From contig OZ247499.1 of NCBI GenBank assembly GCA_965233625.1, positions 4,884,419 through 4,948,418 on the forward strand: a stretch of DNA of 64,000 nt, read 5' to 3'. The DNA is from Pirellulaceae bacterium (GTDB lineage Bacteria; Planctomycetota; Planctomycetia; Pirellulales; Pirellulaceae). Shown here piece by piece: positions 1-60,569 of this stretch. The notes under the pieces were generated by a model that did not search any database, was not told where the DNA came from, and was given only the letters and a program-made list of their open reading frames with translations. Position 1 is the stretch's first letter. Each line of letters begins with the position of its first letter. The translations under genes were made by a program, and so were the position numbers.

Positions 1-225
1 GGTGCGCCACCGTGACCGATTCGGCCAGCGGAGACAGCAGGTTGAAATACTCGCCATAACCGCAGCTGGCTTCGTAAGCCACATGAAACGGCTGGTCGAG
101 CGACTTCAGGAAATGCAGCAGTTCCGTCACCGGCCCCAGCTTCACTTCCCGCTGCTTTTTCCCTTGATCGTCGAGCACACATACCGCTACAAACTTTGCA
201 TGAACATCTAATCCAACGTAAAACA
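1..225 (-). CDS. IS110-family transposase, N-terminal fragment; gene continues beyond the window start
   Basis: The minus-strand translation from the ATG at 225 reads MFYVGLDVHAKFVAVCVLDDQGKKQREVKLGPVTELLHF..., which is the characteristic N-terminal DEDD/RuvC-like motif of IS110 transposases (xxVGIDVxKxxxxVCV). The sequence 'gggagg' sits about 6 nt upstream. The reported plus-strand ORF 2..211 is rejected as its shadow. Confidence 0.6.
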
Positions 226-304
226 TCCTGGAAGCCTCCCAAGGTCAAGTGAAAGAATCTGCTAACTTCCACTTTAAGACCGACGGAGGCTTCCTTCATA
301 GTTT

Positions 305-417
305 CGAGGGGCGTTTGATGTGGATGCGAAAACGGGGGTTTTTGGCCGTATTCTGGTGGACTTCAACCGGCGATGCGCTGTTAATTCCGGCGTCCCTTGC
401 TCGCGCTTCGGGTTAGT
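305..417 (+). repeat. 5'-truncated copy of the ~145-bp palindromic repeat element (PRE family); only the right half and right terminal inverted repeat are present
   Basis: The segment 'cgaggggcgtttgatgtggatgcgaaaacgggggtttttggcc...cgtcccttgctcgcgcttcgggttagta' aligns with the inner and right-terminal parts of the copies at 17648, 19952, 48476 and 49497. The left arm 'taacccgaagcgcgagc' is absent, and the IS110 5' flank lies immediately to the left instead. Confidence 0.6.
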
Positions 418-525
418 ATTCTTATTTGAATTTAAGGCTGAATGTGATTTTCAGCCTCAAAGTGTGCAGCTTTAAAACCTGTTGCCAGGTTAGGGTCATC
501 GCTGTTGAGTGAAACAGGAAGTGCT

Positions 526-6230: not shown

Positions 6231-6327
6231 AATCACGTGATGGAGATACTTTTCACAATGGCGGCAGCTTGAACACCGTCGGATATCCGTCTACTGACAA
6301 CTCCACAATTCCAAACCCGAGTCGAGC

Positions 6328-7338
6328 ATGTTTGACAAACTAAAAAGCAGATTCGCTAGAGCCACCCGTCGGCCTCAAAGCGATGTTGAGCCAGGGGACC
6401 TGGAATTTTTCGGACTCAACAATCTGTGCCGCCTGGCGAGGATTAGAAGTTATTGGCAACACCGCCAGGATCTGCGAGACAGGCAGCAGGCCTACGCAAA
6501 CGATCTACCGCAGCTATTGCGTGAAAATGGTGACAGCGGCAGTTCTTCCATTCGCCTGAAAGACGGGTATGCAATCTACACGCGCAAAGATCTACCGCAC
6601 CTGGACCGCGTTTATGAGGAAGCGGAAGAGTTTATCGCATTGCGGGGCGGCAAGCCGCGAGAGCCGGGAAACCGCGCCTTCATCAAAGATCTTATCGAAC
6701 CGGGCGACCTCGAGCGATTTCCGTCGTTCCTCGACTTTGCCACCAGTTCTGCTGTGGTCGAGCCGGTCTGTCACAGCATGAAAATGGTGCCTCGACTTTC
6801 GGACCTGGTGCCTCCTCCGGTCCGCTTGACCGAAAGCACCATCCAGGGCCAGGTCGCGGAAGGCGAGTATTTTACGTCTCAGCTGTTTCATCTGGACTTC
6901 CACGACAAACCGGTTGTTTACGTCATCCTGCTGCTTAGGGATGTAGGCCCCCAGAGCGGTCCTTTCTGCTTCTTGCCCAGCAGCGTTTCCGCCCGGGTTG
7001 CGCGCGAACTGAAGTATGGAAAACGGAACATCCCGTATCGACTGACGGACGAACAGGTGGCGAGCGTTGTTGATGAAGATGAAATCATTAGATTCGAAGG
7101 CAGCCGGGGCGACGTTCTCTTTCTGGAGTCGAACGCATGCTTTCACTTTGGCAGCCGCGACTGTCACGTTCCCCGTTACCAGTTGATGATCGCCTATGTC
7201 AGCCCCTGCCGGACAGACTTCTCCGATCTCTACATGGACCGCAATCATCTGCCAGCTTCCCCTTCAGACTCGCGACTACGGCAGATGCTCTTTCGCAGCT
7301 TGCCCAATCACAGCCGCAAGTCGAAGACTCCGTCGTAA
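6328..7338 (+). CDS. hypothetical protein, possibly a PhyH-like Fe(II)/2-oxoglutarate-dependent dioxygenase
   Basis: HLDFHD (HxD) and a downstream FHFGSRDCH are compatible with a 2-His-1-carboxylate facial triad. The gene lies immediately downstream of the NRPS-like gene on the same strand. The assignment is weak. Confidence 0.4.
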   Translation: MFDKLKSRFARATRRPQSDVEPGDLEFFGLNNLCRLARIRSYWQHRQDLRDRQQAYANDLPQLLRENGDSGSSSIRLKDGYAIYTRKDLPHLDRVYEEAEEFIALRGGKPREPGNRAFIKDLIEPGDLERFPSFLDFATSSAVVEPVCHSMKMVPRLSDLVPPPVRLTESTIQGQVAEGEYFTSQLFHLDFHDKPVVYVILLLRDVGPQSGPFCFLPSSVSARVARELKYGKRNIPYRLTDEQVASVVDEDEIIRFEGSRGDVLFLESNACFHFGSRDCHVPRYQLMIAYVSPCRTDFSDLYMDRNHLPASPSDSRLRQMLFRSLPNHSRKSKTPS

Positions 7339-8079: not shown

Positions 8080-11000
8080 TTAGGCGGCGGCTAGTTGACG
8101 GCGTTGGCCGGCGGCTGCGATCCATTCCTGCACTTCTGTCAGGTCGGGCTTCTTACCGTTGCGGACAATGCGGATGCCTTCTTTGGTCTGGCAGAAGGGT
8201 TTCACTTTGGCGAACAGCGCGGTGGCCGATTCGGCAGCCAGTTGCGCCGCGGTGGTTACGCCGCATGCGACCAGAATCTGTGCGTCGTGGCCGCGTAGCC
8301 CCGGCGTGCAACAGACCAGTCTGGCCTGCGCCTGCCAGTCGCGGACGTGCGACGCCTTCACGCGCCGCTGGTTCAGCCGGTCGGCAACTTCCACGGCGTC
8401 TGCATTGAGCAGATCGTCCACGGTATAGATACCCACGGCCTCAAGCCGGGCAGCGGTCTTCGGACCAATCGAAGGTGCGGCGGCGATTTCCTGTTCGCGG
8501 CTGAGGTAGAAGCGGAGTTCCGCCGGCTCGGATACCGCCGGTGTGCTCTCGCGGCGGGTGGTTGAACGTGCTTCACGCTCGCGGGAAGCGTACTCCCGTG
8601 CGTCGCGTTCACGGGCGTCGCGTTCACGCCGCTGGCGTTGCCGTTCCGCGCGGCGTGCTTCACGCTGGCGGCTCCCACGTTCGCTGCGACTGCGGTGCGA
8701 ACTACTGCGGGAACTGCTGGAACGTGAACTGCTTGAACGCGAACTGCTCGAACGGGAGCTGCTGCCGTTACGCGTGGTTGCATAACGCGAGTCGCCGTCG
8801 CTGTCTTCGTCGCGGGTCCGCAGCCCTTCATAGGCTTCGTTGCGGAGCCGGCTGTACTGGCTGCTACGATGCGTGCGGCCATTGCGCGAGCTGCGCCAGG
8901 AAGCATGCCGCCACGAAGTACCGCCGCCCTTGATCCAGCGCGTTAAACGGTCGATCTCGGCCGTCGTGCCCGACCGCACCAGACGCGAGCCTTCGGGCGT
9001 TGCGACAAATTCTTCCAGCATCGCCTGCAAGTTGCCTGGACGAATGCTTGCCAGTTGCTGGCCGTCGTAAATCCGGCAGGCGTACAAAATGCGGGCGTCG
9101 TACGAGCGGAGGTTCCGCACTTCGCACATCAGCCGCGACATACCCTGCCAGCGCGAAACCGTCGAGTGCTTCACGTTGGGACGGGAAAGACGTTCAGCCA
9201 GTTCACCGGCATTGGCGTGCAACAGGTCTTCGACCGTATAGACGTCCAGGTCGCGTAACTGGTTAGCGACCGCCGGCTCGAGAAAAGGGATCTGGGTTAC
9301 CTCATCGCGGGTGCGGAGAAAATAACCGTCTTCGTATTGCGTTTCACGCTGCCGGGCCGAAGCCGGTTCGTACTGGCGGTGCACCCGCAGCGGAGCTTCG
9401 TCGCGGTGCAGGTGGTACGGACGTGAAGTGCTGTATCGTAGCTTGTGCGAAAACACGGGTAGTGTGCGGTCGTACTGGCGGACGCCGTAGTAAGGCGTGT
9501 GGTACGAAGCCTGCGGTGTGTCCTGCGGCTGCACCGTATAAAGATACGAATCATCGTAGCTGCGACGCGGTGTATGAGCATGCCGCCGCGATGCGCTCCA
9601 GCGGGGCGTGTAGTGGCTGGCCGGGTGATGATGCGGCAGCGCGCCGTGCCAGGCGTATTCGGGCAGCTTGGCCGTGGTTGTCCGGCGGTACTCACCGTAG
9701 TAGTACGGGCGCTGTGCCGCGCGGTAATCGTATTCGTCCGCCCGGTGATGCGGATAACGCGGCCCAGCGTACGAACGCACGCCACGGGCAGGCGTTGTCA
9801 CGGGCAGGTTACGCACAGGGGCGCCGTACGATTTCATCAGGTCGGCGATCTCACGCTGCGACGTCAGCAGCACAATCTGCCAGCCGCGCGAAGCATAATC
9901 GCACAGCAGTTCCGCAGCCGCCCGGTGGCAGTGCGAGGGCAGATGGCGGAAGGCGTCGTCCAGCAGGACCGGCGGCTGTTGCTGCTGCCGCGAACGGTCG
10001 CTGGCCAAGGCCAGGCAGAGGCTGAGTTTGACCAGATCACGCGAACCGGCCGAAAGCACATTGGCGTTGTGATACATGCCGGTGTTGTCTTCAACGCGGA
10101 TCGAACGGCTGTCGCGATCCACGGTGATCCGCACCAGTTCTCCGCCGGTCAGCCGGTCGAGATTCTGCGATGCTTCCGCCGTAACCGGATGCGTCTGACG
10201 GGTGACGATCCGGCGGAGCGATGCGGCGAAATCTTCGCGGGCGATCACTGCCTGGCGGACGCTGGCGCCAACGCGTTCGAGTTCTGCACGGCAGTGGTCG
10301 ATGCGGTTCTGATGTTCGTTCCAGCGGTGGTGTTCAAAGCGGGCGAGTTCCGCACGGAGCGAATCCAGTTCGGCGTTGGCCGCTTCGATGCTGCGTGCAA
10401 GCTGCGAAGCATGCGTGCGCAGATCGTGCAGATGTTCGCGCTCCAGCGTTTCGCGGCGCTGGGCTTCGTACTCTGGCCAGTGGACATCAGCCGGCTGCAT
10501 GCGGTCGTTGATGTAGTGCCGCTGTGCGGTCAGGCATTCGATCTGACGGGTGGTCTCTTCGATCTTGGCGTGCACGTGATGCAGTTCGCAGTGCAGGCCT
10601 TCGTTCTGAATCACACGCCCGTTGCCACGCATATGCTGGGCAAGGGTGGTGAGTTCCGTCTGCAGCGATTCCAGCACGGGCGTCAGCCGGGTGTACGCAT
10701 CATCGCGGCGCCAGTGGTTGGCCCAGCGGTAGGTGGTGCTGCGGCGGGTCGCCAGTTCGCGGTCGATCTCGTGGGCTTTGCGTTCCAGTTCGGCGCTGTA
10801 GCGTTCTGGATCGTAGTCGTATTCGTCGCGTGCAGCGGGGCGTGACATCTGATCTTCCAGCCGGTCGGCGCGCTGCTGCAAGCTGCTGCGCGAACGGTCA
10901 AGCTGCGCGATCTGATCGTTGAGGAAGTCTACGCACTGCGTTGCGTAACGCGTGGCGGCTTCGTTCTCGCCACGGAGACCTTTCCACCAGTGGGCGATCT

Positions 11001-12375: not shown

Positions 12376-12430
12376 ACACTAACCCGAAGCTCGCGCTCCG
12401 GGTTAGTGCATGATGCGAAAAACTTGTGTA
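12376..12430. repeat. miniature PRE copy (fused termini only) plus the flanking 'gcgaaaaacttgtgta' motif
   Basis: The sequence 'cactaacccgaag-ctcgcgctccgggttagtg' is the left terminal arm fused to the right terminal arm of the 145-bp element. It is followed by 'catgatgcgaaaaacttgtgtat', the same motif that flanks copies A (17648-17669) and D (49642-49664). Confidence 0.55.
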
Positions 12431-16473: not shown

Positions 16474-17610
16474 ATGAACCGCGCCAGAACCGTGGCCTGC
16501 TTTCTGCTACTAACGCTGTCCGTATCTCCGCTCGCGGCCCAGGGACCGGGCGGTATTGCCGGCGCCTTGCGGGCGCTGAGCCCGTTTTCGTCTGTTGAGG
16601 CGGATAAGAACAAAACCTACACGCTGACCGATAAGCACGGTCCGTGGCTGATTTACGCAGCCTCGTTCACCGGCGAAGGCGGCGCGAAGCAAGCCAATGA
16701 GCTGGTGTATGAACTGCGCCACGATCATCAGCTAGAAGCGTACATCACCAAGCACCACTTCGACTTTAGCGGCCGGATGACCGGTCTGGGGCTGCAGGAA
16801 GATGGCTCGCAGCAGGTTATGCGTCACCGCCGTAACGTCGCCTTCGACCAGTACGCCGTGATGATCGGCAACTTCAAAGATGTCTACGATCCGCAGGTGG
16901 AAACCACGCTGCAACGCATCAAGCACATGCAGCCTGTTACATTGGACCCGACCAAACGGGAAGTGACTTATCACAGCCTGGGCCTGTGGCGTGAAGTGCA
17001 ACGTCGCGTCAGTCCCAACCGCAAAGTGCGGAGCATGGGTCCGATGCGGGCGGCGTTTGTCACGCGTAATCCGCTGATCCCAGCTTCCTTCTTTGCACCC
17101 AAGGGTCTGGACCCGCTGGTGGTGAAGATGAACCGCGATGTTCAGTTCAGCCTGCTGAAGTGCCCCGGTAAGTACTCCGTGAAGGTCGCAACCTTCCGCG
17201 GCAGAACCACGATGGACACCAAGAAGATTGAACAGCTCATGGCCGCGCCCACCGACAGCAGCCAGCTTGCGGTGGCAGCCCACAAAGCCCACACGCTGAC
17301 CACAGCGTTGCGCAACCGCGGCGTAGAAGCGTACGAATTTCATGACCGGCACGAAAGCATTGTCGCCGTCGGTTCGTTCTCGTCGGTCGGAACCAAACGC
17401 CCCGATGGCAAGATCGAAATCAATCCGGCCGTGCACGCCATTCTGAAATCGTACGGCGCCTCGCAAGTAAACATCCCTGGCCGCGGGCTGCAGGCCCCAA
17501 CGCCGCACAGCTTTGGCAACATCCCCTTCGACATCCAGCCGATGCCGATCGAAGTGCCACGGCATTCAGTAGCCAGCGACTACGCACAGCGTAGCTCCAT
17601 CTTCGAATAG
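16474..17610 (+). CDS. secreted hypothetical protein (378 aa)
   Basis: The SD 'aaggagacg' is followed by the ATG at 16474 and a signal peptide, MNRARTVACFLLLTLSVSPLAAQG. Confidence 0.6.
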   Translation: MNRARTVACFLLLTLSVSPLAAQGPGGIAGALRALSPFSSVEADKNKTYTLTDKHGPWLIYAASFTGEGGAKQANELVYELRHDHQLEAYITKHHFDFSGRMTGLGLQEDGSQQVMRHRRNVAFDQYAVMIGNFKDVYDPQVETTLQRIKHMQPVTLDPTKREVTYHSLGLWREVQRRVSPNRKVRSMGPMRAAFVTRNPLIPASFFAPKGLDPLVVKMNRDVQFSLLKCPGKYSVKVATFRGRTTMDTKKIEQLMAAPTDSSQLAVAAHKAHTLTTALRNRGVEAYEFHDRHESIVAVGSFSSVGTKRPDGKIEINPAVHAILKSYGASQVNIPGRGLQAPTPHSFGNIPFDIQPMPIEVPRHSVASDYAQRSSIFE

Positions 17611-17647: not shown

Positions 17648-17813
17648 TACACATGTTTTTCGCACCCCACATTAACCCGAAGCGCGAGCGAGGGGCGTTT
17701 GATGGAGTGCGAAAAACAAGGGGTTTTGGCGAACCGACTTCAAGTCGATAGTCTTCTTGACGGGCCATTCGCAGCAACGCGGGACGCCCCTCGCTCGCGC
17801 TTCGGGTTAGTGT
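17648..17813 (+). repeat. PRE copy A: ~145-bp element with perfect 26-bp terminal inverted repeats, plus the flanking 'ctacacatgtttttcgc' motif
   Basis: The left arm is taacccgaagcgcgagcgaggggcgt and the right arm is acgcccctcgctcgcgcttcgggtta. The inner sequence is cgtttgatggagtgcgaaaaacaaggggttttggcg.... Confidence 0.8.
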
Positions 17814-17832: not shown

Positions 17833-18831
17833 TTAGCCCTGGACCATCTCGACGATCATCTCTGCGATTGCAGCCGGCGTCTGCGAGTCGTCCATGGGAA
17901 GATGACGGCATTCAGAGAGGCCGCGGAACCATGTGTCCTGCCGGCGTGCGAACTGGCGGGTGCGGATATTCACCGCTTCGCGCATTGAGGCTTCGTCTTC
18001 TCCTGCTTCAAGCGCGGCGATCACTTCGCGGTAACCGACGGCCTGCGAAGCCGTGCGGCCCAGTTCCCCATACTCTTCCAGCAGACCGCGGACTTCCGCC
18101 ACCAGTCCCTCGTCGAACATCTGGTGCACGCGCTGCTCAATGCGGTTGTGTAGCTCCGCGCGGGGCCAGTCCAGCACAAACACTTTGCAATCTTTGGCGG
18201 CCCGGCCTTCTTCAAAATGCGTCTGCTGGTGGCTGATCGGCTGGCCGGTGATCTTATAGACTTCCAGCGCGCGGATGATGCGGCGCGTGTCGTTGGGATG
18301 AAGCCGGGCGGCGGACAGCGGATCGACCTGGTTCAGCCGGTCGTGCAACGCCTGGACACCCACCTGCTTCACTTCTTCCTCCACCGCGCGGCGGAATTCC
18401 CAGTCGGCGGGCGGACCTTCGAACACGCCGCGTAGCAGCGATTTCAGATACAGCGGCGTACCGCCGACAAACAACGGCTGCAGGCCCCGGTCGCGGATAT
18501 CTTTCACCACATCTGCGGCCGCCGCGATGTACTCGGCCGCGCTGAAACTTTCGACAGGTGTGGCGATATCGATCAGGTGATGCGGCGTCTGCGACCGCTG
18601 CTGGGCCGTCGGCTTGGCGGTGCCAATGTCCATGCCCTGGTAAACGGCCATCGAATCGAGCGAGATAATCTCGGCGTTCAGCCGCTGCGCCAATTCCAGA
18701 CCGGTCGACGTCTTTCCGCTGGCTGTGTGGCCCGAAAGGAACCAGCAGTCTTTGAAGGTCTCAGCAACGTCCCGCGACGCACCGGCGCCTGAATTCATAA
18801 CAACATTTCCAGCAAAACCACGCAGCATCAT
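17833..18831 (-). CDS. miaA: tRNA dimethylallyltransferase
   Basis: The P-loop FLSGHTASGKTSTGLELAQRLNAEIISLDSMAVYQGMDIGTAKP and the downstream GGTPLYLKSLL are the MiaA signature. The start is uncertain. The TTG at 18843 sits too close to the 'gaggaa' SD, so the ATG at 18831 is preferred. Confidence 0.85.
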   Translation of the reverse strand: MMLRGFAGNVVMNSGAGASRDVAETFKDCWFLSGHTASGKTSTGLELAQRLNAEIISLDSMAVYQGMDIGTAKPTAQQRSQTPHHLIDIATPVESFSAAEYIAAAADVVKDIRDRGLQPLFVGGTPLYLKSLLRGVFEGPPADWEFRRAVEEEVKQVGVQALHDRLNQVDPLSAARLHPNDTRRIIRALEVYKITGQPISHQQTHFEEGRAAKDCKVFVLDWPRAELHNRIEQRVHQMFDEGLVAEVRGLLEEYGELGRTASQAVGYREVIAALEAGEDEASMREAVNIRTRQFARRQDTWFRGLSECRHLPMDDSQTPAAIAEMIVEMVQG

Positions 18832-19951: not shown

Positions 19952-20096
19952 ACATTAACCCGAAGCGCGAGCGAGGGACGGTTGATTGAGCGCGAAAAAC
20001 AAGGCGTTTTGGCGATACAGGTTCAAATCGAAAATCTTCCTGACCGGCCATTCCTGGGCAACGCGGGGCGTCCCTCGCTTGCGCTTCGGGTTAGTG
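19952..20096 (+). repeat. PRE copy B
   Basis: The sequence runs acattaacccgaagcgcgagcgagggacggttgattgagcgcgaaaaacaaggcgttttggcg...gggcgtccctcgcttgcgcttcgggttagtg. It has the same architecture and orientation as copy A. Confidence 0.8.
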
Positions 20097-20161
20097 TTCA
20101 TTCGCCAAAGCGTGAGAGTTCTGCACCCTTGCCGGTTTGCAATTGTCCAGCTACCAACCGC

Positions 20162-30047: not shown

Positions 30048-30191
30048 ATCAGCCTGGCGGTGGTGGAACACGGTGCAAGTTGTGTGAATCGCAGCGTTGT
30101 AGGCAGCCGCGTTTCACCAACGATTAGACGCCATCGCCGCAAAGACGTGAACCGGGGTGCGAATGTGCCGTTGTACGCAACGATCTGTGAC

Positions 30192-30230
30192 TCCCCTCAC
30201 CCCAGCCCTCTCCCCAGAGGGGCGAGGGGG
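30192..30230. repeat. ~40-bp 'cccctcaccc(c/t)a(g/a)ccctctcccc(a/g)gaggggcgagggg' element, copy 1
   Basis: The sequence is ctcccctcaccccagccctctccccagaggggcgaggggg. The same motif occurs at 40109, 60395 and, degenerate, 49398. Confidence 0.7.
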
Positions 30231-30417
30231 CCAGCACGGTCTCGATGCGAATGTTTGAGACGCCGGGAGGTTCTAGCCCTATAATTCAACGGACGAACAT
30301 ACCGGCAAATTTGTGCAATATTTCTGCGGTGCGGGCGAACTACGTGCGGCTTTGATTTCGCAGATAGGCGGATTGAAGCTGCCTGGGATCCGTGAATTTG
30401 AACAAGGGAGAAGGGTC

Positions 30418-40051: not shown

Positions 40052-40108
40052 AGAAGCGTTTCCCGTCGTGTCTGCCACTACGGATCGCACCGTGCGGAGA
40101 AAGCCGTG

Positions 40109-40147
40109 CCCCCTCACCCTAGCCCTCTCCCCGGAGGGGCGAGGGGA
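40109..40147. repeat. ~40-bp 'ccctcaccctagccctctccccggaggggcgagggga' element, copy 2
   Basis: Read directly from the sequence, 57 nt after the stop at 40051. Confidence 0.7.
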
Positions 40148-40410
40148 CCAGAAACTGCACCTTCATCTGATCGCCGGTTGGTCGCTCGCTTGCCAGCACT
40201 GCGCGCAGGTTGTTCCGTTATTGCGGCAAATTCGGCTTCTTACCACCAGGAACCATTACAGCGGTTAGGCCTGTTGCGCCGATAGAGAACAAACAACAGG
40301 CGCCTGGAGGTTCTACCTCTGCGCCTGTGTAAACCGTGGGGCATTTGCAAATACATGGCTCTGGCTGTCCGGCAGCGAGGGTCCAATACGCCAGACTGAA
40401 GGTTCAACCT

Positions 40411-41461: not shown

Positions 41462-44400
41462 ATGAGCTGGCTCCGCAAAATTACACGGAAACTCTGGAAG
41501 AAGCCGGCAGGCAACGCCTGCTGCGATTCCAACGCCAACTCCACCGGGCGCGTCTGCGGGTTCGAAGAGATGGAACCGCGGCGGATGCTGGACGCAGACC
41601 CCATTCAGATCGGCGCCGTGTTCCTGGAAACAGACGACGGCGCCGACACACAGGCCGATGTCTTCGAGATCAGCTTTGAAGGCGGCGCCGCCGGGACGCA
41701 GCTGAAAGAGGTTTATATTGACCTGGATCAGACACCCGGTGGAACGCCCGGTATCTTGCAGGCGCCTGATCTGTTCTTCGACACGGCTGATACTGGTTTT
41801 GGCAGCCGCGAAGCGCATGCGTTTCAGGTCGTTAACGGCGCTGGTGACGGCATCGACAGCGTGCAGGCCGAAGTCGTCGACGGCACCTCGCAGTTGAAGC
41901 TGACGTTCGAAGGCTTCGACGCGGGTGAGAAATTCGTCTTCAGCATCGACGTCGATCACGCCAACCGCACGTTTATCAACGACAACTTCGACCTGCTCAA
42001 TACGGGCAACCCCAACGACCTGACGGCGGCTGAACTTTCCTACATCAACGACAACTCATTTGACTCGCTGGCGTCTGGGCGTGAGTTCGCCACGTCGCAG
42101 TTCCACGCTACCTTCGTGGCGCCCGGCTTTGCCGAGACAACCGGCATGGGCCGTTATGCCGACGATTACAACTTCAACGGAACCACGTTGCAGTTGACCG
42201 GCGATAGCGACACCAACCAGCCCAACCGCACCGACGGTGTGCACTTTCAGCTGGAGCAGGAAGAACTGCCCGTCACTATCAGCGGCCGCGTGTTCCACGA
42301 CCGCGACTTCAACCTGGTGCAGGACGGAACCGGCGCAGATGAAGATCACGGCATCGCCGGCGTTGAGCTATCTCTGCTGAAGCTGAACGAAACCACCAAC
42401 CAGTACGAAGACACCGGCCACACCGCCACCACCGACATCAACGGCGACTATCTGTTCGGCGAAGACCTGGGCCTGGGCTCTGGTACTTACAGTGTGGTCG
42501 AAACACAGCCGGGCGATTATCCGTACAGCGTGGGCGCCATTCCCGGTACGGTTGAAGGCGCCACGTCCGGCGTTGTGGGGCCGTTTGATAACAACGTGAT
42601 CGAACAGATCGTCATCCCGCTGGGCGGACAGGATTCGATCAACAACGATTTTGCCGAAGCCAAGCCGGTTGAGATCAGCGGCTTCGTCTATCACGACCGC
42701 AACGATAACGGCATCCGCGAAACGGGCGAAGAAGGTATCGAAGGCGTCACCATCCGCCTGCTGCCTATCAACACGGTTTCGCTGGAAACGCCGCGCGAGA
42801 TGCAGACCGGCGCCGATGGTTCTTACTCGTTTGAAGGTCTGGCCCCCGGCGAGTACGAAGTTTACGAGATCCAGCAGCCAACCGGTTACATCGACGGTAA
42901 AGACACCGCTGGCAAAATCGGATCGGACACAGTTGGCGTTGCTGGCAACGAACAGATCACCGAGATTTTCCTGCCCAGCGATTCTAAGGGTGTGGAATAC
43001 AATTTCGGTGAGATTCAGGAAGCACGCATCAGCGGCAACGTGCACCTTTCGACGCCCGAAGGCGAATGCTTTGAAGATAACCCCAGCACGCCTTACGTGC
43101 CTATTCCAGGCGTCCGGGTTGAGCTGACAAACCTTGACACCAATGAAGTCCGCCACACGTTTACCGATCAGAACGGCGATTACTCGTTCGACGGTCTGCC
43201 GCCGGGCAACTACAAGGTGGTTGAATTCACGCCGGCAGATGTGCTGGATGGCGGCGCCCGCGTCGGCGAAACGCCTGGTCCTGGCGATGGCATCCTGGAC
43301 CCGGCCGATCCTTCCAACATCATCACCAACATCACGCTAGAGCCCGGCGCCGTCGCCGTAAACTACGACTTCTGCGAGCATCTACCCGCCGAGATTGCCG
43401 GTAATGTCTACCACGACCGCAACAACAACGGCCTGCGTGAAACGGGTGAAGAAGGTATCGGCGGCGTCACCATTATTCTCCGCGACGCTGCGACCGGCGA
43501 CTTCATTTCCGACACCACCACGGAAACTGATGGCTCGTATAAGTTCGAGGGGTTAACCCGCGGCGATTACACGCTCGAAGAAGTGCACCCCACTGCCTAC
43601 ACGGACGGCAAAGATACGGCTGGCACCGTCGGCGGCACGACGCACGGCGTGGCGACGAATGATCTAATCAGCGACGTCCATCTCGACTTCGGCGAGGCGG
43701 GCATCGAGTACAACTTTGGCGAACGTCTGCTGGCGGAAATCAGCGGTAACGTCCACCTCTCGACACCCGATGGCGACTGCTTCGAAGATCTGCCGCAGGG
43801 CGAAGAATACCGCCCCATTGAAGGCGTGCTGATCCGGCTGATCAACGAAGACACCGGCGCCGAGATTACGCAGCTGACGGACTCTGAGGGCAACTACTCT
43901 TTCAAAGATCTTGACCCCGGCACTTACACCGTTGTCGAAACGACGCCGACGGGCTTGATCAACGGCGGGGCACGTGTTGGCGAAACACTGGGCGACGCCG
44001 ACGGCGTGCTCGACGCGCTGCGGCCGGGCGATGCGATCACCAGCATCGAACTAGAGCCCGGCGCCGTTGCCGTGAACTACGACTTCTGCGAGCACGAACC
44101 GGCTTCGATCAGCGGTCACGTGTACCACGATGCCAACAACGATGGCCTGTTCGACAAGATCAACGAAGATCCCATCCCAGGCGTCCGTGTGATTCTTCGC
44201 GATGGCAATGGCAACTTCATTGCTGAACGCACGACCGAAACCGACGGCAGCTACAGCTTTGAAGGCCTGGAAAAAGGCGAGTACATCCTCGAAGAAATTC
44301 ATCCCAATGCCTGGATCGATGGTAAAGACACCATCGGTACGGTCGACGCCATTCCTAACGGCTTTGCTGGCGATGATGAGTTCCTGGCCATCAATCTGCT

Positions 44401-47191
44401 CTACGGCGATGAAGGCGTTGAGTACAACTTTGGCGAACGGCTGCTCGGATCGCTCCGCGGTAATGTGCATCTATCCGACGGTCTGGGCGACTGTTTTGAT
44501 GACAACGTCATCTATCAGCCACTTCCCGGTGTTACCGTTCAGCTGATCGATCAGGCGACCGGAAACATCATCCGCACGACCACGACCGACAATCAGGGCG
44601 ACTACGAATTCGTTGACCTGGAAGCCGGCACCTACACGATTGTCGAAATCACACCGGCCCACCTGCTCGATGGCGGCGCCCGCGTAGGCAACATCGATAA
44701 CGTGGATGTGGGCGTGCTGGAGAACCCCAGCCGGATCAGCACCATCGTGCTGGACCACGGTGAAAACGGTGAAGATTACGACTTCTGCGAACACGAACCG
44801 GCCACCATCTCTGGCTTCGTCTATCACGATCGTGATAACGATGGCCTGAAAGAGACGGGCGAAGAAGGCATCAAAGACGCCATCGTGATTCTCCGCGATT
44901 CGGCGGGCACCGAAATAGACCGGCAGACGACCGGCGATAATGGCGAATACAGCTTCACCGGCCTGAAAGCAGGCGAGTACACACTCGAAGAAATTCAGCC
45001 TTCGGCCTATCTGGATGGCAAGGACACCACCGGCCAGATCGGCGGCAGCGACGTGGGCGTAGCTGGCAACGATGTGATCCAGCAGATTGTTCTGCCCGGC
45101 GGCTCTGACGGCGTGAACTATAACTTCGGCGAACTGCTACCGGCCAGCATCGAAGGTTACGTGCATTCGGACCCGGATCTGAACTGCATCTTCGATATCG
45201 ATGAAGACCCGATCGCAGGCGTGACAATTATTCTCCGCGATGCGAACACCGGCGACATCCTTGCCGATACGGTCACCGACGCCAACGGTCACTATAAGTT
45301 CGACAACCTCGGACCCGGCGAATTCACCATCGAGGAAATTCAGCCCGTAGATTACTTCCAGGGCGGTCAGGTTGTAGGTGTGACCGGCAACGGCGACGCG
45401 ACGGTCGACAACTTCCTGTCGTCCATCACGATCCAGTCGGGCGATGCTCTGGAGAATTACAACTTCTGCGAGATTCCTGCCGGCCGGATCTCTGGCTTCG
45501 TCTTTGTGGACGGCGCCCCGATTCTGACCGACACCGGCGCCCCGCCGAGCGACCTCACCGGCATCCGCGATGGCGTGCTGACCAACGACGATACCCGCAT
45601 CCAGGGCGTAACGCTGGAACTGCGTAACGGTATCACTGGCGACGTGATCAACGGCGAAGACCTGTTGCCCGGCGCCTACCCGAACGGCCCCGTGCAGACT
45701 CAGACCGACGCCAACGGCTTCTACGAGTTCACCGGGCTGCCGCCTGGCAGCTACGCCGTGTACGAAATTCAGCCGGTGCAGTACTTCGACGGTATCGATA
45801 CGCCGGGCACCACTTCCGGCATTGCCGTGAACCCGAATCAACCGCGTTCGGCAGCGGAACAACAATCTATCTTCCTGCTCTCGGAAGATCCTGGCGACGA
45901 CGCGATTATCCGCATCGCTCTGGGAATCGGCGACTCGTCCGAACTGAACAACTTCAGCGAGATCGAGACCACGGTCGGACCGCCGCCGCCGCCGCCACCT
46001 CCACCACCGCCACCACCACCACCGCCTCCACCACCACCGCCGCCACCGGGCACACCGCCCGATGTGCCGCAGGCGCCAACGGCTGCCACTCCGCCGTCGT
46101 CCGTGCTTGCTGTGGCAGGGGGAACCACCGTTTCGACCGTTCGCACCACTGGCGGGTTTGAGTTCAAACCTTACAGCTGGCACCTGAGCGTGATTAACGC
46201 AGGCACCCCGCGTGGTAACGGAGTAGAACTTGCAGAAACCGACACCTTCCAGCAGGCGGGGCACATCAGCCGCGATCGCTGGCAGGCGGAAGACCTGCAA
46301 GGCGGTTCGTTTGAACTGGTCACCGGCTACAACGATCCCGGCAGCCGCGAATTCTCAGAGAAACTGTTTGGCCTCGAAGGCGCCATTCCGGTTTCCGGAG
46401 ACTTCAACGGCGACGGAACCGATGAAGTTGGCGTCTTCCTCAACGGCGAGTGGTTCATTGATATCAATGGCAACGGACGTTGGGACTCAGAAGACCTATG
46501 GGCCAGCCTCGGCGGCGATAAGGACATACCTGTCACCGGCGACTGGGATGGCGATGGCAAAGACGACATCGGTATCTTCGGGCCGCAGTGGTCGGGCGAT
46601 CCGCACGCTATCGAACGCGAACCCGGTCTGCCCGATGCAGACAACGAGCGCAAGATGGTGGACCTCCGCGACGAACTGCTGCGGCGCAAGAACATGCCGC
46701 CACAGCGCGAAGACGCCACCAACGGCCACCGCGTGATGCAGCGTACGCCGGAAGGACGCGTACGGGCCGACGTTATCGACCACGTCTTCCGTTACGGTGA
46801 ACGGCACGATATGCCCGTGGCCGGTGACTGGAACGGCGACGGTATCCGCGACATCGGTATGTTCCGCGATGGCGTGTGGTATCTGGATGTCGATGGCGAC
46901 GGACGCATCAGCTACGCCGACAAACGGATCGAGTTCGGCGCCGCTGGCGACGTGCCTGTAACCGGCGACTGGAACGGCGACGGCATCGAAGATATCGGCG
47001 TCTACCGCAACGGCGTCTGGCATCTGGATGTCAACGGCAACCACGAGCTGGAAGCGGTCGATCGCGTGTTCGAGATGGGCGGCGCCGGCGATACGCCCAT
47101 CACCGGTGACTGGGACGGCGACGGTGTCGACGAACCAGGCATCTACCGCCACGGTCAACACCTGCGGCAAGCCCGTCGCGACGCCAGCTAA
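41462..47191 (+). CDS. giant secreted adhesin-like protein: ~10 SdrD-B/CnaB-like domains in tandem, a poly-Pro linker, and C-terminal FG-GAP/VCBS-like repeats
   Basis: The ATG at 41462 is preceded by 'ggagg'. The N-terminus carries FEEMEPRRMLDADP. Two alternating domain types are seen: ISGFVYHDRNDNGIRETGEEGIEGVTIRLL...GSYSFEGLAPGEY, and ISGNVHLSTPEGECFED...GVRVELTNLDT...GDYSFDGLPPGNY. A run of about 23 consecutive Pro follows. Then come five GDWNGDGxxDIGxF repeats. Confidence 0.85.
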   Translation: MSWLRKITRKLWKKPAGNACCDSNANSTGRVCGFEEMEPRRMLDADPIQIGAVFLETDDGADTQADVFEISFEGGAAGTQLKEVYIDLDQTPGGTPGILQAPDLFFDTADTGFGSREAHAFQVVNGAGDGIDSVQAEVVDGTSQLKLTFEGFDAGEKFVFSIDVDHANRTFINDNFDLLNTGNPNDLTAAELSYINDNSFDSLASGREFATSQFHATFVAPGFAETTGMGRYADDYNFNGTTLQLTGDSDTNQPNRTDGVHFQLEQEELPVTISGRVFHDRDFNLVQDGTGADEDHGIAGVELSLLKLNETTNQYEDTGHTATTDINGDYLFGEDLGLGSGTYSVVETQPGDYPYSVGAIPGTVEGATSGVVGPFDNNVIEQIVIPLGGQDSINNDFAEAKPVEISGFVYHDRNDNGIRETGEEGIEGVTIRLLPINTVSLETPREMQTGADGSYSFEGLAPGEYEVYEIQQPTGYIDGKDTAGKIGSDTVGVAGNEQITEIFLPSDSKGVEYNFGEIQEARISGNVHLSTPEGECFEDNPSTPYVPIPGVRVELTNLDTNEVRHTFTDQNGDYSFDGLPPGNYKVVEFTPADVLDGGARVGETPGPGDGILDPADPSNIITNITLEPGAVAVNYDFCEHLPAEIAGNVYHDRNNNGLRETGEEGIGGVTIILRDAATGDFISDTTTETDGSYKFEGLTRGDYTLEEVHPTAYTDGKDTAGTVGGTTHGVATNDLISDVHLDFGEAGIEYNFGERLLAEISGNVHLSTPDGDCFEDLPQGEEYRPIEGVLIRLINEDTGAEITQLTDSEGNYSFKDLDPGTYTVVETTPTGLINGGARVGETLGDADGVLDALRPGDAITSIELEPGAVAVNYDFCEHEPASISGHVYHDANNDGLFDKINEDPIPGVRVILRDGNGNFIAERTTETDGSYSFEGLEKGEYILEEIHPNAWIDGKDTIGTVDAIPNGFAGDDEFLAINLLYGDEGVEYNFGERLLGSLRGNVHLSDGLGDCFDDNVIYQPLPGVTVQLIDQATGNIIRTTTTDNQGDYEFVDLEAGTYTIVEITPAHLLDGGARVGNIDNVDVGVLENPSRISTIVLDHGENGEDYDFCEHEPATISGFVYHDRDNDGLKETGEEGIKDAIVILRDSAGTEIDRQTTGDNGEYSFTGLKAGEYTLEEIQPSAYLDGKDTTGQIGGSDVGVAGNDVIQQIVLPGGSDGVNYNFGELLPASIEGYVHSDPDLNCIFDIDEDPIAGVTIILRDANTGDILADTVTDANGHYKFDNLGPGEFTIEEIQPVDYFQGGQVVGVTGNGDATVDNFLSSITIQSGDALENYNFCEIPAGRISGFVFVDGAPILTDTGAPPSDLTGIRDGVLTNDDTRIQGVTLELRNGITGDVINGEDLLPGAYPNGPVQTQTDANGFYEFTGLPPGSYAVYEIQPVQYFDGIDTPGTTSGIAVNPNQPRSAAEQQSIFLLSEDPGDDAIIRIALGIGDSSELNNFSEIETTVGPPPPPPPPPPPPPPPPPPPPPPPGTPPDVPQAPTAATPPSSVLAVAGGTTVSTVRTTGGFEFKPYSWHLSVINAGTPRGNGVELAETDTFQQAGHISRDRWQAEDLQGGSFELVTGYNDPGSREFSEKLFGLEGAIPVSGDFNGDGTDEVGVFLNGEWFIDINGNGRWDSEDLWASLGGDKDIPVTGDWDGDGKDDIGIFGPQWSGDPHAIEREPGLPDADNERKMVDLRDELLRRKNMPPQREDATNGHRVMQRTPEGRVRADVIDHVFRYGERHDMPVAGDWNGDGIRDIGMFRDGVWYLDVDGDGRISYADKRIEFGAAGDVPVTGDWNGDGIEDIGVYRNGVWHLDVNGNHELEAVDRVFEMGGAGDTPITGDWDGDGVDEPGIYRHGQHLRQARRDAS
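42250..45500 (+). repeat. in-frame tandem coding repeats, period ~715 bp (pairs of CnaB-like domains), 4-5 units
   Basis: The recurring peptide 'E(I/P)(A/S)(E/S)ISG(F/N/H)VYHD(R/A)N(D/N)NG' starts near 42661, 43381, 44098 and 44803. Confidence 0.6.
45979..46047 (+). repeat. poly-proline codon tract (ccg/cca/cct)n
   Basis: The DNA reads ccgccgccgccgccacctccaccaccgccaccaccaccaccgcctccaccaccaccgccgccaccg, which encodes the continuous Pro run of about 23 residues. Confidence 0.85.
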
Positions 47192-47221
47192 ACTACAACT
47201 GGCAAACGTCAAAAAGAACCA

Positions 47222-48337: not shown

Positions 48338-48475
48338 ACACCCGTTCCTTCCCACCGCCAGCCACAACAGCCGCCAGTGACATTCCCCTTCAATTCGAGT
48401 GTAAAGCCGCCCCGCAAAGCCGTCAAACCAGTTCAGCTATTAGCGTGCAGTTGCGAAGATGCAGCGCGCATTTGC

Positions 48476-48618
48476 ACTAACCCGAAGCGCGAGCGAGGGA
48501 CGCCCCGCGTTGGTGCGAATGGCCCGTCTAAGCTGCTTTCGACTTCATGCGATTTGGCCAAAACACCTTGTTTTCTGCACTAAATCAAACGTCCCTCGCT
48601 CGCGCTTCGGGTTAGTGT
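48476..48618 (-). repeat. PRE copy C, in inverted orientation relative to copies A and B
   Basis: The sequence runs cactaacccgaagcgcgagcgagggacg...gccaaaacaccttgttttctgcactaaatcaaacgtccctcgctcgcgcttcgggttagtg. The inner sequence is the reverse complement of the copy A inner sequence. Confidence 0.8.
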
Positions 48619-49263: not shown

Positions 49264-49397
49264 CGGAATCAGAATGTGAAGCCGCGTTGCTGTAAGTCCA
49301 TCGTTAATCCGTAGGATCGAGCGATGATTGTAGCAAAACGCCTGTCAACTGTATGCCGGTCGTTCTAGCAACGCGTTGATGCAGGACGGATTCTGTG

Positions 49398-49430
49398 CCC
49401 CCTCACCCTAACCTTCTCCTCGAAGGTAAA
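49398..49430. repeat. degenerate copy of the ~40-bp 'ccctcaccctaacc(c/t)tctcc' element
   Basis: The sequence gccccctcaccctaaccttctcctcgaaggtaaagg shares the first ~22 nt with the other three copies and then diverges. Confidence 0.5.
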
Positions 49431-49496
49431 GGTATCTACACAAGTGGAAACCTGAAGAAGGTGAATTAGCTTTAGAACTTTATTCGACGCACTAAA

Positions 49497-49664
49497 CACT
49501 AACCCGAAGCGCAAGCGAGGGGCGCCAGAGTCTGGAGCTAATAGCCCGTCGGGGCAACTCGTTCGATCTGGAATGTAATCGCCAAAAGTCCTTGTTCGCA
49601 GCGGTAAGTCAAACGCCCCTCGCTCGCGCTTCGGGTTAATGTGCGCGAGCGAAAAACTTGTGTA
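49497..49664 (-). repeat. PRE copy D, in inverted orientation, plus the flanking 'cgcgagcgaaaaacttgtgtag' motif
   Basis: The sequence runs cactaaacactaacccgaagcgcaagcgaggggcg...cgccaaaagtccttgttcgcagcggtaagtcaaacgcccctcgctcgcgcttcgggttaatgtg. Confidence 0.8.
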
Positions 49665-60326: not shown

Positions 60327-60394
60327 CAGCGGGTAAATCGCTGTGCTAAACGCTTCAAGCGGGGCGGTCGTGTTGAGATTGGCTGGATGCGGAG

Positions 60395-60434
60395 CCCCCT
60401 CACCCTAACCCTCTCCCCGGAGGGGCGAGGGGAC
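60395..60434. repeat. ~40-bp 'cccctcaccctaaccctctccccggaggggcgagggga' element, copy 3
   Basis: Read directly from the sequence, 70 nt after the PKS stop. The spurious ORF 60387.. translates it as PLTLTLSPEGRGD. Confidence 0.7.
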
Positions 60435-60569
60435 GAGATGCTGCGCCTGGTTAACGTCGCAACATTGAGTTCATCGTTGCGGACCAGCAATTGTTTGCTT
60501 CGTAACACTGGCTCTTATACACTCGCCAGCCAGGGTAACGTGTTCATTACATCATTTGACGAGGCGGAT

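What the first reader, a model, noticed from the sequence alone, without database searches (positions are those of the whole stretch)
1..417. IS110-family element sits exactly where a PRE copy loses its left arm, suggesting PRE-targeted insertion
The repeat at 305-417 has the complete right arm and inner sequence but no left arm.
The 5' flank and ATG of an IS110 transposase (minus strand, ATG at 225) lie in the position where the left arm should be.
IS110 and IS1111-group elements are known to insert site-specifically into REP-like palindromes in other bacteria.
This would be the same behaviour with a planctomycete repeat family.
Basis: partly seen in the sequence, partly recalled or inferred. 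Interest (0 to 1): 0.55.

Follow-up and report, generated by a model that had tools for sequence, protein, structure and literature searches.

The report
RNA-guided insertion sequence inside a palindromic repeat
A mobile element of the IS1111 type (IS110 family) has landed in one arm of a 145-base palindromic repeat at the site that two related elements also use, a well-known behaviour of this family seen here with a repeat family I did not find described.

Summary
Window 1-226 (minus strand) encodes the first 75 residues of an IS110-family DEDD transposase, and 227-304 is its 78-nt left end. Window 305-417 is a copy of a 145-nt palindromic repeat (PRE) that lacks only the outer 20 nt of its left arm. 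Four intact copies lie elsewhere in the window.

About 20 related elements from genomes and metagenomes all begin with the same motif, AAACTATG(A/T)AGGAAG. This places the IS terminus at base 304, exactly where PRE homology breaks.

Two metagenomic relatives sit at the same nucleotide of PRE-type arms. For L017 both junctions are visible: cctcg|IS|ctcacgcttcgggtta. Its right flank is the arm piece missing from the window.

The clade has IS1111 architecture: a short left end, sub-terminal inverted repeats and a long right end. The right end encodes a conserved RNA whose two hypervariable segments match each element's own flanks (84% against 35% for non-cognate pairs). L017's guides fit the window's PRE site.

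PRE-targeted, RNA-guided insertion is therefore well supported. It is not proven for this copy: its right end and guide RNA lie upstream of the window, and the source genome could not be retrieved.

This is a new member of a known kind, of modest interest.

The parts
1..226 (-). 5' part of the IS transposase gene. It covers 75 codons, with ATG at 226..224, and runs off the window start.
   Evidence: Translation. PF01548 DEDD_Tnp_IS110 over model positions 1-60. It is 44-55% identical to the N-termini of about 20 full-length relatives, three of which were shown to carry PF01548 plus PF02371.
227..304 (-). Complete non-coding left end (LE, 78 nt) of the IS. On the minus strand it reads AAACTATGAAGGAAGCCTCCGTCGGTC...GGGAGGCTTCCAGG, followed by the ATG.
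   Evidence: The terminal motif AAACTATG(A/T)AGGAAG(C/T)CTCCGTC begins exactly at the boundary in L002-L005, L013 and 27 metagenome loci, with unrelated sequence upstream of it. LE lengths in relatives are 76-90 nt. The leader folds as one hairpin, z -5.0.
282..294 (-). Left sub-terminal inverted repeat GGAAGCCTCCGTC. In the leader RNA it also pairs with the Shine-Dalgarno region at 231-241.
   Evidence: In the 14 relatives with both ends, its partner lies near the right end as GACGGA(A/G)GCTTCC.
304..305 (.). IS/PRE junction. In transposase orientation it reads ...CAAACGCCCCTCG|AAACTATG...
   Evidence: PRE homology stops at 305 and IS homology stops at 304. L017 has the identical junction cctcg|AAACTATG.
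305..417 (+). Truncated PRE copy. It keeps the inner 9 nt of the left arm (305-313), the inner region, and a slightly degenerate right arm (391-419, CGTCCCTTGCTCGCGCTTCGGGTTAGTAT).
   Evidence: nhmmer aligns it to profile positions 21-143 at E 9e-12. It has no long stem, z 0.04.
17669..17813 (+). Intact PRE copy. Each arm carries the site GCCCCTCG^CTCGCGCTTCGGGTTA.
   Evidence: (30-bp stem, z -8.7).
19952..20097 (+). Intact PRE copy.
48474..48618 (-). Intact PRE copy, with its inner sequence in the opposite orientation.
49496..49642 (-). Intact PRE copy, with its inner sequence in the opposite orientation.

Best explanation
An IS1111-type member of the IS110 family (DEDD transposase) integrated into the left arm of a pre-existing PRE copy. 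The site, in transposase orientation, was between ...GCCCCTCG and CTCGCGCTTCGGGTTA..., 20 nt from the outer tip of the arm.

The window shows the left junction, the 78-nt left end and the first 75 codons. The rest of the transposase gene, the roughly 350-nt right end and the detached 20-nt arm tip should lie just upstream of the window.

Target choice is most likely made by a seekRNA/bridge RNA encoded in the right end. An internal loop of that RNA carries two guide segments of about 8 nt. The 5' segment is complementary to the top strand of the right flank. The 3' segment is identical to the left flank, so it pairs with the bottom strand. The recombinase then joins a circular IS intermediate to that site without target duplication.

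Shown here: the junction, the IS terminus, the repeat family, and the guide/target logic and same-site insertions in relatives. Inferred: that this copy's unseen right end carries guides of roughly NAGCGCGAG and NCCCCTCG, ends in ...CTTCCTCATGGACG, and is followed by the missing arm tip.
For: (1) The terminus coincides with the break. About 20 related elements all start with AAACTATG(A/T)AGGAAG(C/T)CTCCGTC, preceded by unrelated DNA. In the window that motif ends at base 304 and PRE homology starts at 305. PRE covers only 1.1% of the window.

(2) The same site is used by relatives. L017 reads cctcg|IS 1467 nt|ctcacgcttcgggttacga, a 15/16 match to the missing arm piece. L025 reads acgtctcccttg|IS|cttgcgctgcgggctagt, a PRE-like arm matching 15/18.

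(3) Guide RNA. The last 190 nt of 14 complete elements give a consensus structure of 55 pairs, 14 of them with compensatory changes. Two hypervariable segments lie in one internal loop. Those segments match the element's own flanks at 183/218 positions (84%), against a mean of 35% for 162 non-cognate pairs. L017's guides TCCCCTCG and TAGCGTGAG fit the window's PRE site at 7/8 and 7/9.

(4) The clade is site-specific and makes no duplication. The four Thalassoglobus copies sit at CTAGAGCAGTTTG^CTCTACC of a 106-nt repeat, and empty copies of that repeat are present nearby.

(5) The architecture matches published IS1111 features: a short LE, a long RE, sub-terminal IRs, and the top-strand complement lying 5' of the bottom-strand match (PMC11187229, PMC11208160).

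(6) REP-specific IS110-family elements are documented (PMC1525189, PMC12288879).
Against: - The right junction, the guide RNA and any sister copies of this particular IS were not seen. The source genome is absent from the DNA collections, and the window holds no second copy.
- The two relatives with PRE-type targets are only 36-37/75 identical to the window's transposase N-terminus. Shared targeting therefore rests on the identical left junction, not on close kinship.
- No protein with this N-terminus is in the 5.8-billion-protein collection, although the neighbouring FKBP protein of the same genome is (P0010). This copy may be annotated as a pseudogene or be a fragment.
- The truncated PRE is the most diverged copy.
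- L017's left flank is only 5 nt long because the contig ends there.
Confidence: 0.8

Rival explanations
1. Chance hit. The IS prefers some other target, or has none, and landed in a PRE by accident.
For: Only one copy is visible and its own guide RNA is unseen. Individual members of the clade do sit in imperfectly matched sites, for example L036 with a right-guide match of 4/8.
Against: PRE is 1.1% of the window. The junction is identical to L017's, and L017's guides specify this very site. L025 uses the equivalent position. All multi-copy members examined are site-specific.
Confidence: 0.08
2. The IS did enter a PRE or lie next to one, but the arm tip was later lost by an IS-mediated or unrelated deletion or rearrangement. 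Alternatively, the IS itself is now a 5' fragment. In either case the far junction is not flanked by the missing half.
For: No annotated protein with this N-terminus exists in the protein collection, although the neighbouring gene's product does. The PRE copy is unusually diverged and about 12 nt shorter inside. IS110-family recombinases can also catalyse excision and inversion (PMC11208160).
Against: The 75-codon ORF is intact and keeps the conserved GLDVH and YEAS motifs. The left end is complete and folds like its relatives.
Confidence: 0.1
3. The PRE-like segment 305-417 is part of the mobile element itself, so the true IS end lies beyond 417. A variant of this idea is that PRE is a non-autonomous derivative of this IS.
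For: Nothing beyond the adjacency of the two.
Against: All relatives end at AAACTATG, with unrelated DNA outside it. PRE arms share no similarity with the IS ends. Intact PREs occur without any IS, and no IS sequence occurs elsewhere in the window.
Confidence: 0.02

Closest known systems
ISPpu9 / ISPpu10 (Pseudomonas putida KT2440), ISPa11, ISPsy8, ISRm19/22: REP-specific insertion sequences (PMC1525189; PMC12288879)
   Same: They insert at a fixed position inside a repeated extragenic palindrome. For ISPpu9 the cited paper names the IS110 family and describes a small-RNA gene (ssr9) downstream of the transposase gene. ISPa11 is treated as an IS1111-family member with a seekRNA in PMC11187229.
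   Different: The target here is a 145-nt element with 29-bp terminal inverted repeats and a conserved inner region, not a 35-nt REP. The host appears to be a planctomycete, judged only from the relatives found. Only one copy was seen, and its RNA was not seen.
IS1111-family elements with a demonstrated seekRNA: ISEc11, ISKpn4, ISPst6, ISPa11 (PMC11187229)
   Same: The non-coding region lies downstream of tnp and there are sub-terminal inverted repeats. Two short target matches occur in a structured RNA, with the top-strand complement 5' of the bottom-strand match. Guides are naturally re-directed between relatives. Insertion makes no target duplication.
   Different: The terminal extensions beyond the inverted repeat are about 10 nt on the left and 9 nt on the right in this clade, by my reading. 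The paper reports 7 and 3 nt. Transposase identity to those elements was not measured here. No experiment was done.
IS621 of E. coli and its bridge RNA (PMC11208160)
   Same: It has a DEDD recombinase, a REP target, and a bispecific RNA with a target-binding loop and a donor-binding loop. The base next to the crossover co-varies in L017 across the target (CTCG), the right end (GGACG) and the RNA (ATGGACG).
   Different: IS621 belongs to the IS110 group, with its RNA in a long left end. Here the left end is 78 nt and the RNA is in the right end, which is the IS1111 group layout.
[quoted passage not shown] They are cited in PMC11187229 as Partridge and Hall 2003, a paper I did not read.
   Same: They are IS1111-type elements that insert inside one arm of another element's terminal inverted repeat.
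   Different: Their target is a transposon end rather than a short non-coding repeat family.
ERIC/IRU, BIME and MITE-type long palindromic intergenic repeats (from general knowledge; PMC3184786 was listed by the search but not read)
   Same: PRE is about 145 nt, intergenic, occurs in either orientation, and has a long imperfect hairpin with a conserved interior.
   Different: There is no sequence similarity to any described family: Rfam gave no hit and a literal sequence search of the paper library found nothing relevant. The genome-wide copy number and the way PRE spreads are unknown.

Membership tests
IS110 family (DEDD transposases) | N-terminal RuvC-like DEDD domain (Pfam PF01548) | tested here: inconclusive
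   The window fragment of 75 aa scores 19.7 bits against a 29-bit cut-off, covering model positions 1-60 of 155. The first D (GLDVH) and the E (YEAS) are present. Relatives that are 44-55% identical pass at 60-81 bits.
IS110 family (DEDD transposases) | C-terminal Transposase_20 domain (PF02371) | not testable with these tools
   The domain lies upstream of the window and the source genome is not retrievable. It is present in the relatives L017, L003 and L001.
IS110 family (DEDD transposases) | Site-specific insertion without target-site duplication | tested here: met
   This was met in relatives only. The Thalassoglobus empty site CTAGAGCAGTTTGCTCTACC compares with the filled site ...GTTTG|IS|CTCTACC. 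L017 reads CCTCG|IS|CTCACGC, against the PRE sequence CCTCGCTCGCGC.
IS1111 group | Sub-terminal inverted repeats | tested here: met
   The left repeat GGAAGCCTCCGTC is in the window at 282-294. Its partner GACGGA(A/G)GCTTCC is seen near the right end of 14 relatives. The window's own right repeat is unseen.
IS1111 group | Short left end, with the long non-coding region downstream of tnp | tested here: met
   The window LE is 78 nt. Relatives have an LE of 76-90 nt and about 320-345 nt after the stop codon. The window's RE is unseen.
IS1111 group | A seekRNA/bridge RNA in the right end with two target matches, the top-strand complement lying 5' of the bottom-strand match | tested here: met
   This was met in 14 relatives: a conserved structure with 14 compensatory pairs, and 84% cognate against 35% non-cognate guide-flank matching. 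The order of the matches agrees with PMC11187229. It is not testable for the window copy.
REP-targeting insertion sequences | Several copies of the same IS at the same position of different copies of a palindromic repeat | not testable with these tools
   Only one copy of this IS is visible. The feature is met by proxy: L017 and L025 sit at the same PRE-type position, and four Thalassoglobus copies share one position in another repeat.
REP elements in the strict sense | A 20-40-nt GC-rich hairpin in hundreds of copies, associated with a RAYT transposase | tested here: not met
   PRE is 145-147 nt with 29-30-bp arms and an inner region of about 87 nt. Copy number and the presence of a RAYT are unknown. 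PRE works as a REP-like target but should not be filed as REP.

The most novel reading that the evidence does not exclude
The guide-specified site GCCCCTCG^CTCGCGCT occurs in both PRE arms in inverted orientation. The window also holds a 33-nt mini-palindrome made only of the two arm tips (12377-12409). PRE might therefore be more than a passive landing pad. It could itself be rearranged or mobilised (inversion, internal deletion, dispersal) by the IS1111-type recombinase and its RNA, which would make it a non-autonomous partner of an RNA-guided recombinase. A weaker version is that the clade tracks lineage-specific repeat families by re-programming its guides. At least three repeat or hairpin targets are seen (PRE, the 106-nt Thalassoglobus repeat and the marine CACTGTCGG hairpin), among six distinct target classes.
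Probability: 0.05. Interest if true: 0.6.

Novelty: new member of a known kind. Interest (0 to 1): 0.3.

Why it matters
The result adds a planctomycete-type example to the established rule that IS110/IS1111 elements use an RNA guide to settle in harmless repeated palindromes. It also defines a widespread clade with recognisable ends (AAACTATG...CTTCCTCATGGA(T/C/A)G) and readable guide positions.

In practice, the guides of such elements can be read to predict their targets and to discover host repeat families. The PRE site could also serve as a natural safe-harbour target if this recombinase were developed as a tool.

It does not change current understanding of the mechanism.

Tried and rejected
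- **Retrieving the source genome.** The goal was to read upstream of position 1. A protein search with the 75-aa N-terminus gave 9 hits, the best 52% identical and none from the source. The genome-contig scan gave relatives at 49% or less. Exact look-ups of three window proteins were 'not on record'. The neighbouring FKBP protein does exist in the protein collection on a 7,813,638-nt contig (P0010), but no accession or DNA could be obtained.
- **Second copy of the IS in the window.** None was found.
- **Rfam.** A search of the window and three complete relatives gave no family at gathering score, so neither PRE nor the right-end RNA is a curated family in that release.
- **PRE arms elsewhere.** There are none in the 356 kb of fetched loci and none in viral contigs. 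A literal search of the paper library returned only two unrelated antimicrobial-resistance papers.
- **Orthologous empty site.** The closest syntenic locus (L044, 71% nt identity) has neither PRE nor IS. It shows only that PRE is lineage-specific, not the pre-insertion state.
- **Junction promoter.** I considered a promoter formed by the invariant TTGAC of the right end together with the left end. By my own count no good -10 hexamer lies at 17-18 nt spacing, so I make no such claim.
- **PRE as a derivative of the IS.** Rejected, because the ends share no similarity.

Full report
**What is at 1-417**

On the minus strand an ORF starts at ATG 226..224. It reads MFYVGLDVHAKFVAVCVLDDQGKKQREVKLGPVTELLHFLKSLDQPFHVAYEASCGYGEYFNLLSPLAESVTVAH to the window edge. 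It matches the first 60 of 155 positions of Pfam PF01548 (DEDD_Tnp_IS110) at E 7.7e-4. This is below the curated cut-off because only 75 residues are available.

The ORF is 44-55% identical to the N-termini of about 20 elements recovered from genomes and metagenomes. The three full-length proteins I tested carry PF01548 and PF02371 well above cut-off.

Bases 227-304 are the non-coding left end.

**The repeat family**

The arm core CGCTTCGGGTTA occurs 11 times in the window with at most 1 mismatch, against 0.3 expected. These hits define four complete elements at 17669-17813, 19952-20097, 48474-48618 and 49496-49642. The last two have the inner sequence in the opposite orientation.

Each complete element is 145-147 nt. 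The 29-nt terminal inverted repeats are ACATTAACCCGAAGCGCGAGCGAGGGGCG and CGCCCCTCGCTCGCGCTTCGGGTTAGTGT. They fold into 29-30-bp stems with z -7.2 to -8.7.

A profile of the four copies aligns window 305-417 to profile positions 21-143 (E 9e-12). It finds no other truncated copy. Exactly the outer 20 nt of the left arm are missing, and homology breaks between 304 and 305. This copy no longer forms the long stem. It is also the most diverged copy, at 60-65% identity.

**Where the IS ends, determined independently of PRE**

The source genome could not be retrieved, so I used relatives:
- Botrimarina (L001);
- four copies in a Thalassoglobus MAG (L002-L005);
- a Planctomicrobium MAG (L013);
- 27 metagenome loci found with the left-end motif.

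Nearly all of them begin with AAACTATG(A/T)AGGAAG(C/T)CTCCGTC (L001 and L006 carry diverged versions), and the DNA upstream of the motif is unrelated between loci. The distance from this terminus to the start codon is 76-90 nt, and in the window it is 78 nt. In the window the motif's first base is 304. The IS terminus and the PRE break therefore coincide to the nucleotide.

The 78-nt leader is also structurally complete. It folds into one hairpin (z -5.0) that pairs the sub-terminal repeat GGAAGCCUCC with the Shine-Dalgarno region. The same fold is kept through sequence changes in L017, L002 and L028.

**The other junction, seen in relatives**

Fourteen relatives have both ends, and the right end finishes ...CTTGACGG(A/G)GCTTCCTCATGGA(T/C/A)G. 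Two of them bear directly on the finding.

- **L017** is a 1507-nt metagenome contig. It reads cctcg|AAACTATG...1467 nt...CATGGACG|ctcacgcttcgggttacga. Its left junction is identical to the window's (cccctcg|AAACTATG) and its first 27 IS bases are identical. Its right flank matches the arm piece missing from the window, CTCGCGCTTCGGGTTA, at 15 of 16 positions.
- **L025** reads acgtctcccttg|IS|cttgcgctgcgggctagt. This is the equivalent point of a diverged PRE-like arm, with the right flank matching 15 of 18 positions.

**The clade is site-specific**

The Thalassoglobus element (1446 nt) lies in each of the four loci at CTAGAGCAGTTTG^CTCTACC. That site is 13 nt inside a roughly 106-nt repeat with terminal inverted repeats CTAGAGCA...TGCTCTAG. 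The outer flanks differ between copies.

Uninterrupted copies of that repeat occur in the same loci: L002 3006-3111, L004 18039-18144, 16826-16931 and 14918-15020, and L005 around 6252-6357. Comparing empty and filled sites shows no target duplication.

Seven marine copies sit at the 3' foot of a hairpin CACTGTCGG-N5-CCGACAGTG. Other sub-groups share their own targets.

**How the target is chosen**

The last 190 nt of the 14 complete elements align well except for two hypervariable blocks. RNAalifold predicts 55 pairs, 14 of them with compensatory changes. The two variable blocks form the two strands of one internal loop closed by an apical hairpin. A second module follows that contains GAAUGGA(U/C)G.

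The 5' block is the reverse complement of the element's right flank. The 3' block equals its left flank. Cognate matching is 183/218 positions (84%), against a mean of 35% for 162 non-cognate pairs.

This is the published arrangement for IS1111-family seekRNAs: the non-coding region lies downstream of tnp, and the top-strand complement lies 5' of the bottom-strand match (PMC11187229). It also matches the published layout of IS1111 bridge RNAs in a long right end (PMC11208160).

L017's guides, TCCCCTCG and TAGCGTGAG, fit the window's PRE site at 7/8 and 7/9 positions. In L017 the base before the crossover is C in three places: the target (CTCG), the right end (GGACG) and the second RNA module (AUGGACG). 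Most relatives have T at all three. The window's flank also ends CTCG.

**Interpretation**

The window shows the left junction of an IS1111-type element that integrated into a PRE arm at GCCCCTCG^CTCGCGCTTCGGGTTA, most likely directed by its own right-end RNA. Both arms of every intact PRE carry this site.

REP-specific IS110-family elements are well documented: ISPpu9, ISPpu10, ISPa11 and others (PMC1525189, PMC12288879), and IS621 (PMC11208160). This is therefore a new member of a known kind. The target repeat family was not found in Rfam or in the paper library.

**Limits**

- The right junction, guide RNA and sister copies of this particular IS were not seen.
- The relatives that share its target are only 36-37/75 identical in the visible part of the protein.
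- No protein with this N-terminus is in the large protein collection, although the neighbouring FKBP protein of the same 7.81-Mb replicon is. The copy may be annotated as a pseudogene or be incomplete.
- A syntenic metagenome locus (L044) has neither PRE nor IS. This shows that PRE is lineage-specific but gives no exact pre-insertion state.
- L017's left flank is only 5 nt long, and the Thalassoglobus loci contain N-run scaffolding artefacts.

Noticed in passing
window 12377-12409: There is a mini-palindrome, CACACTAACCCGAAGCTCGCGCTCCGGGTTAGTGC. It is made only of the outer tips of the two PRE arms, with no inner arm halves or interior. It could be a deletion derivative or the ancestral core of PRE.
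   Followed up: partly
window 30186-30245, 40103-40162, 49372-49426, 60389-60448: A second, unrelated palindromic repeat family is present, with the sequence ...CCCCTCACCCTAACCCTCTCCCCGGAGGGGCGAGGGG... (repeat finder families D8/D10). One copy lies about 70 nt from the PRE at 49496.
   Followed up: no
window 230-294 (minus strand); also L017, L002, L028 left ends: The IS leader folds into a hairpin that pairs the left sub-terminal inverted repeat with the Shine-Dalgarno sequence (z -5.0 in the window). The pairing is kept by compensatory changes in relatives. It probably blocks translation of read-through transcripts.
   Followed up: partly
L002 3006-3111, L004 14918-15020 / 16826-16931 / 18039-18144, L005 ~6252-6357: A Thalassoglobus MAG carries a roughly 106-nt repeat family with terminal inverted repeats CTAGAGCA...TGCTCTAG. 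This repeat is the exclusive target of the related IS in that genome.
   Followed up: yes
L018, L019, L031, L034, L040, L041, L043 (TARA and other marine contigs): Marine members of the clade are all inserted at the 3' foot of a conserved hairpin, CACTGTCGG-N5-CCGACAGTG. Most contigs break inside the IS, which suggests the element is multi-copy there.
   Followed up: partly
L044 9253-9288 compared with window 1-525: In a syntenic metagenome contig (71% nt identity from window 557 onward) the two genes are separated by only 36 nt. Neither PRE nor IS is present there or anywhere in 20 kb.
   Followed up: yes
window 42400-47200: Long in-frame tandem coding repeats are present, with periods of about 141 nt and about 710 nt (repeat finder families D1-D3, D6, D7, D13). 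They probably belong to a large repetitive surface protein.
   Followed up: no
L003 9824-9923, L004 11376-11462, L005 ~9825-10060: Runs of N are flanked by duplicated IS-end segments in the Thalassoglobus MAG. These are scaffolding artefacts at a multi-copy IS, not biology.
   Followed up: yes
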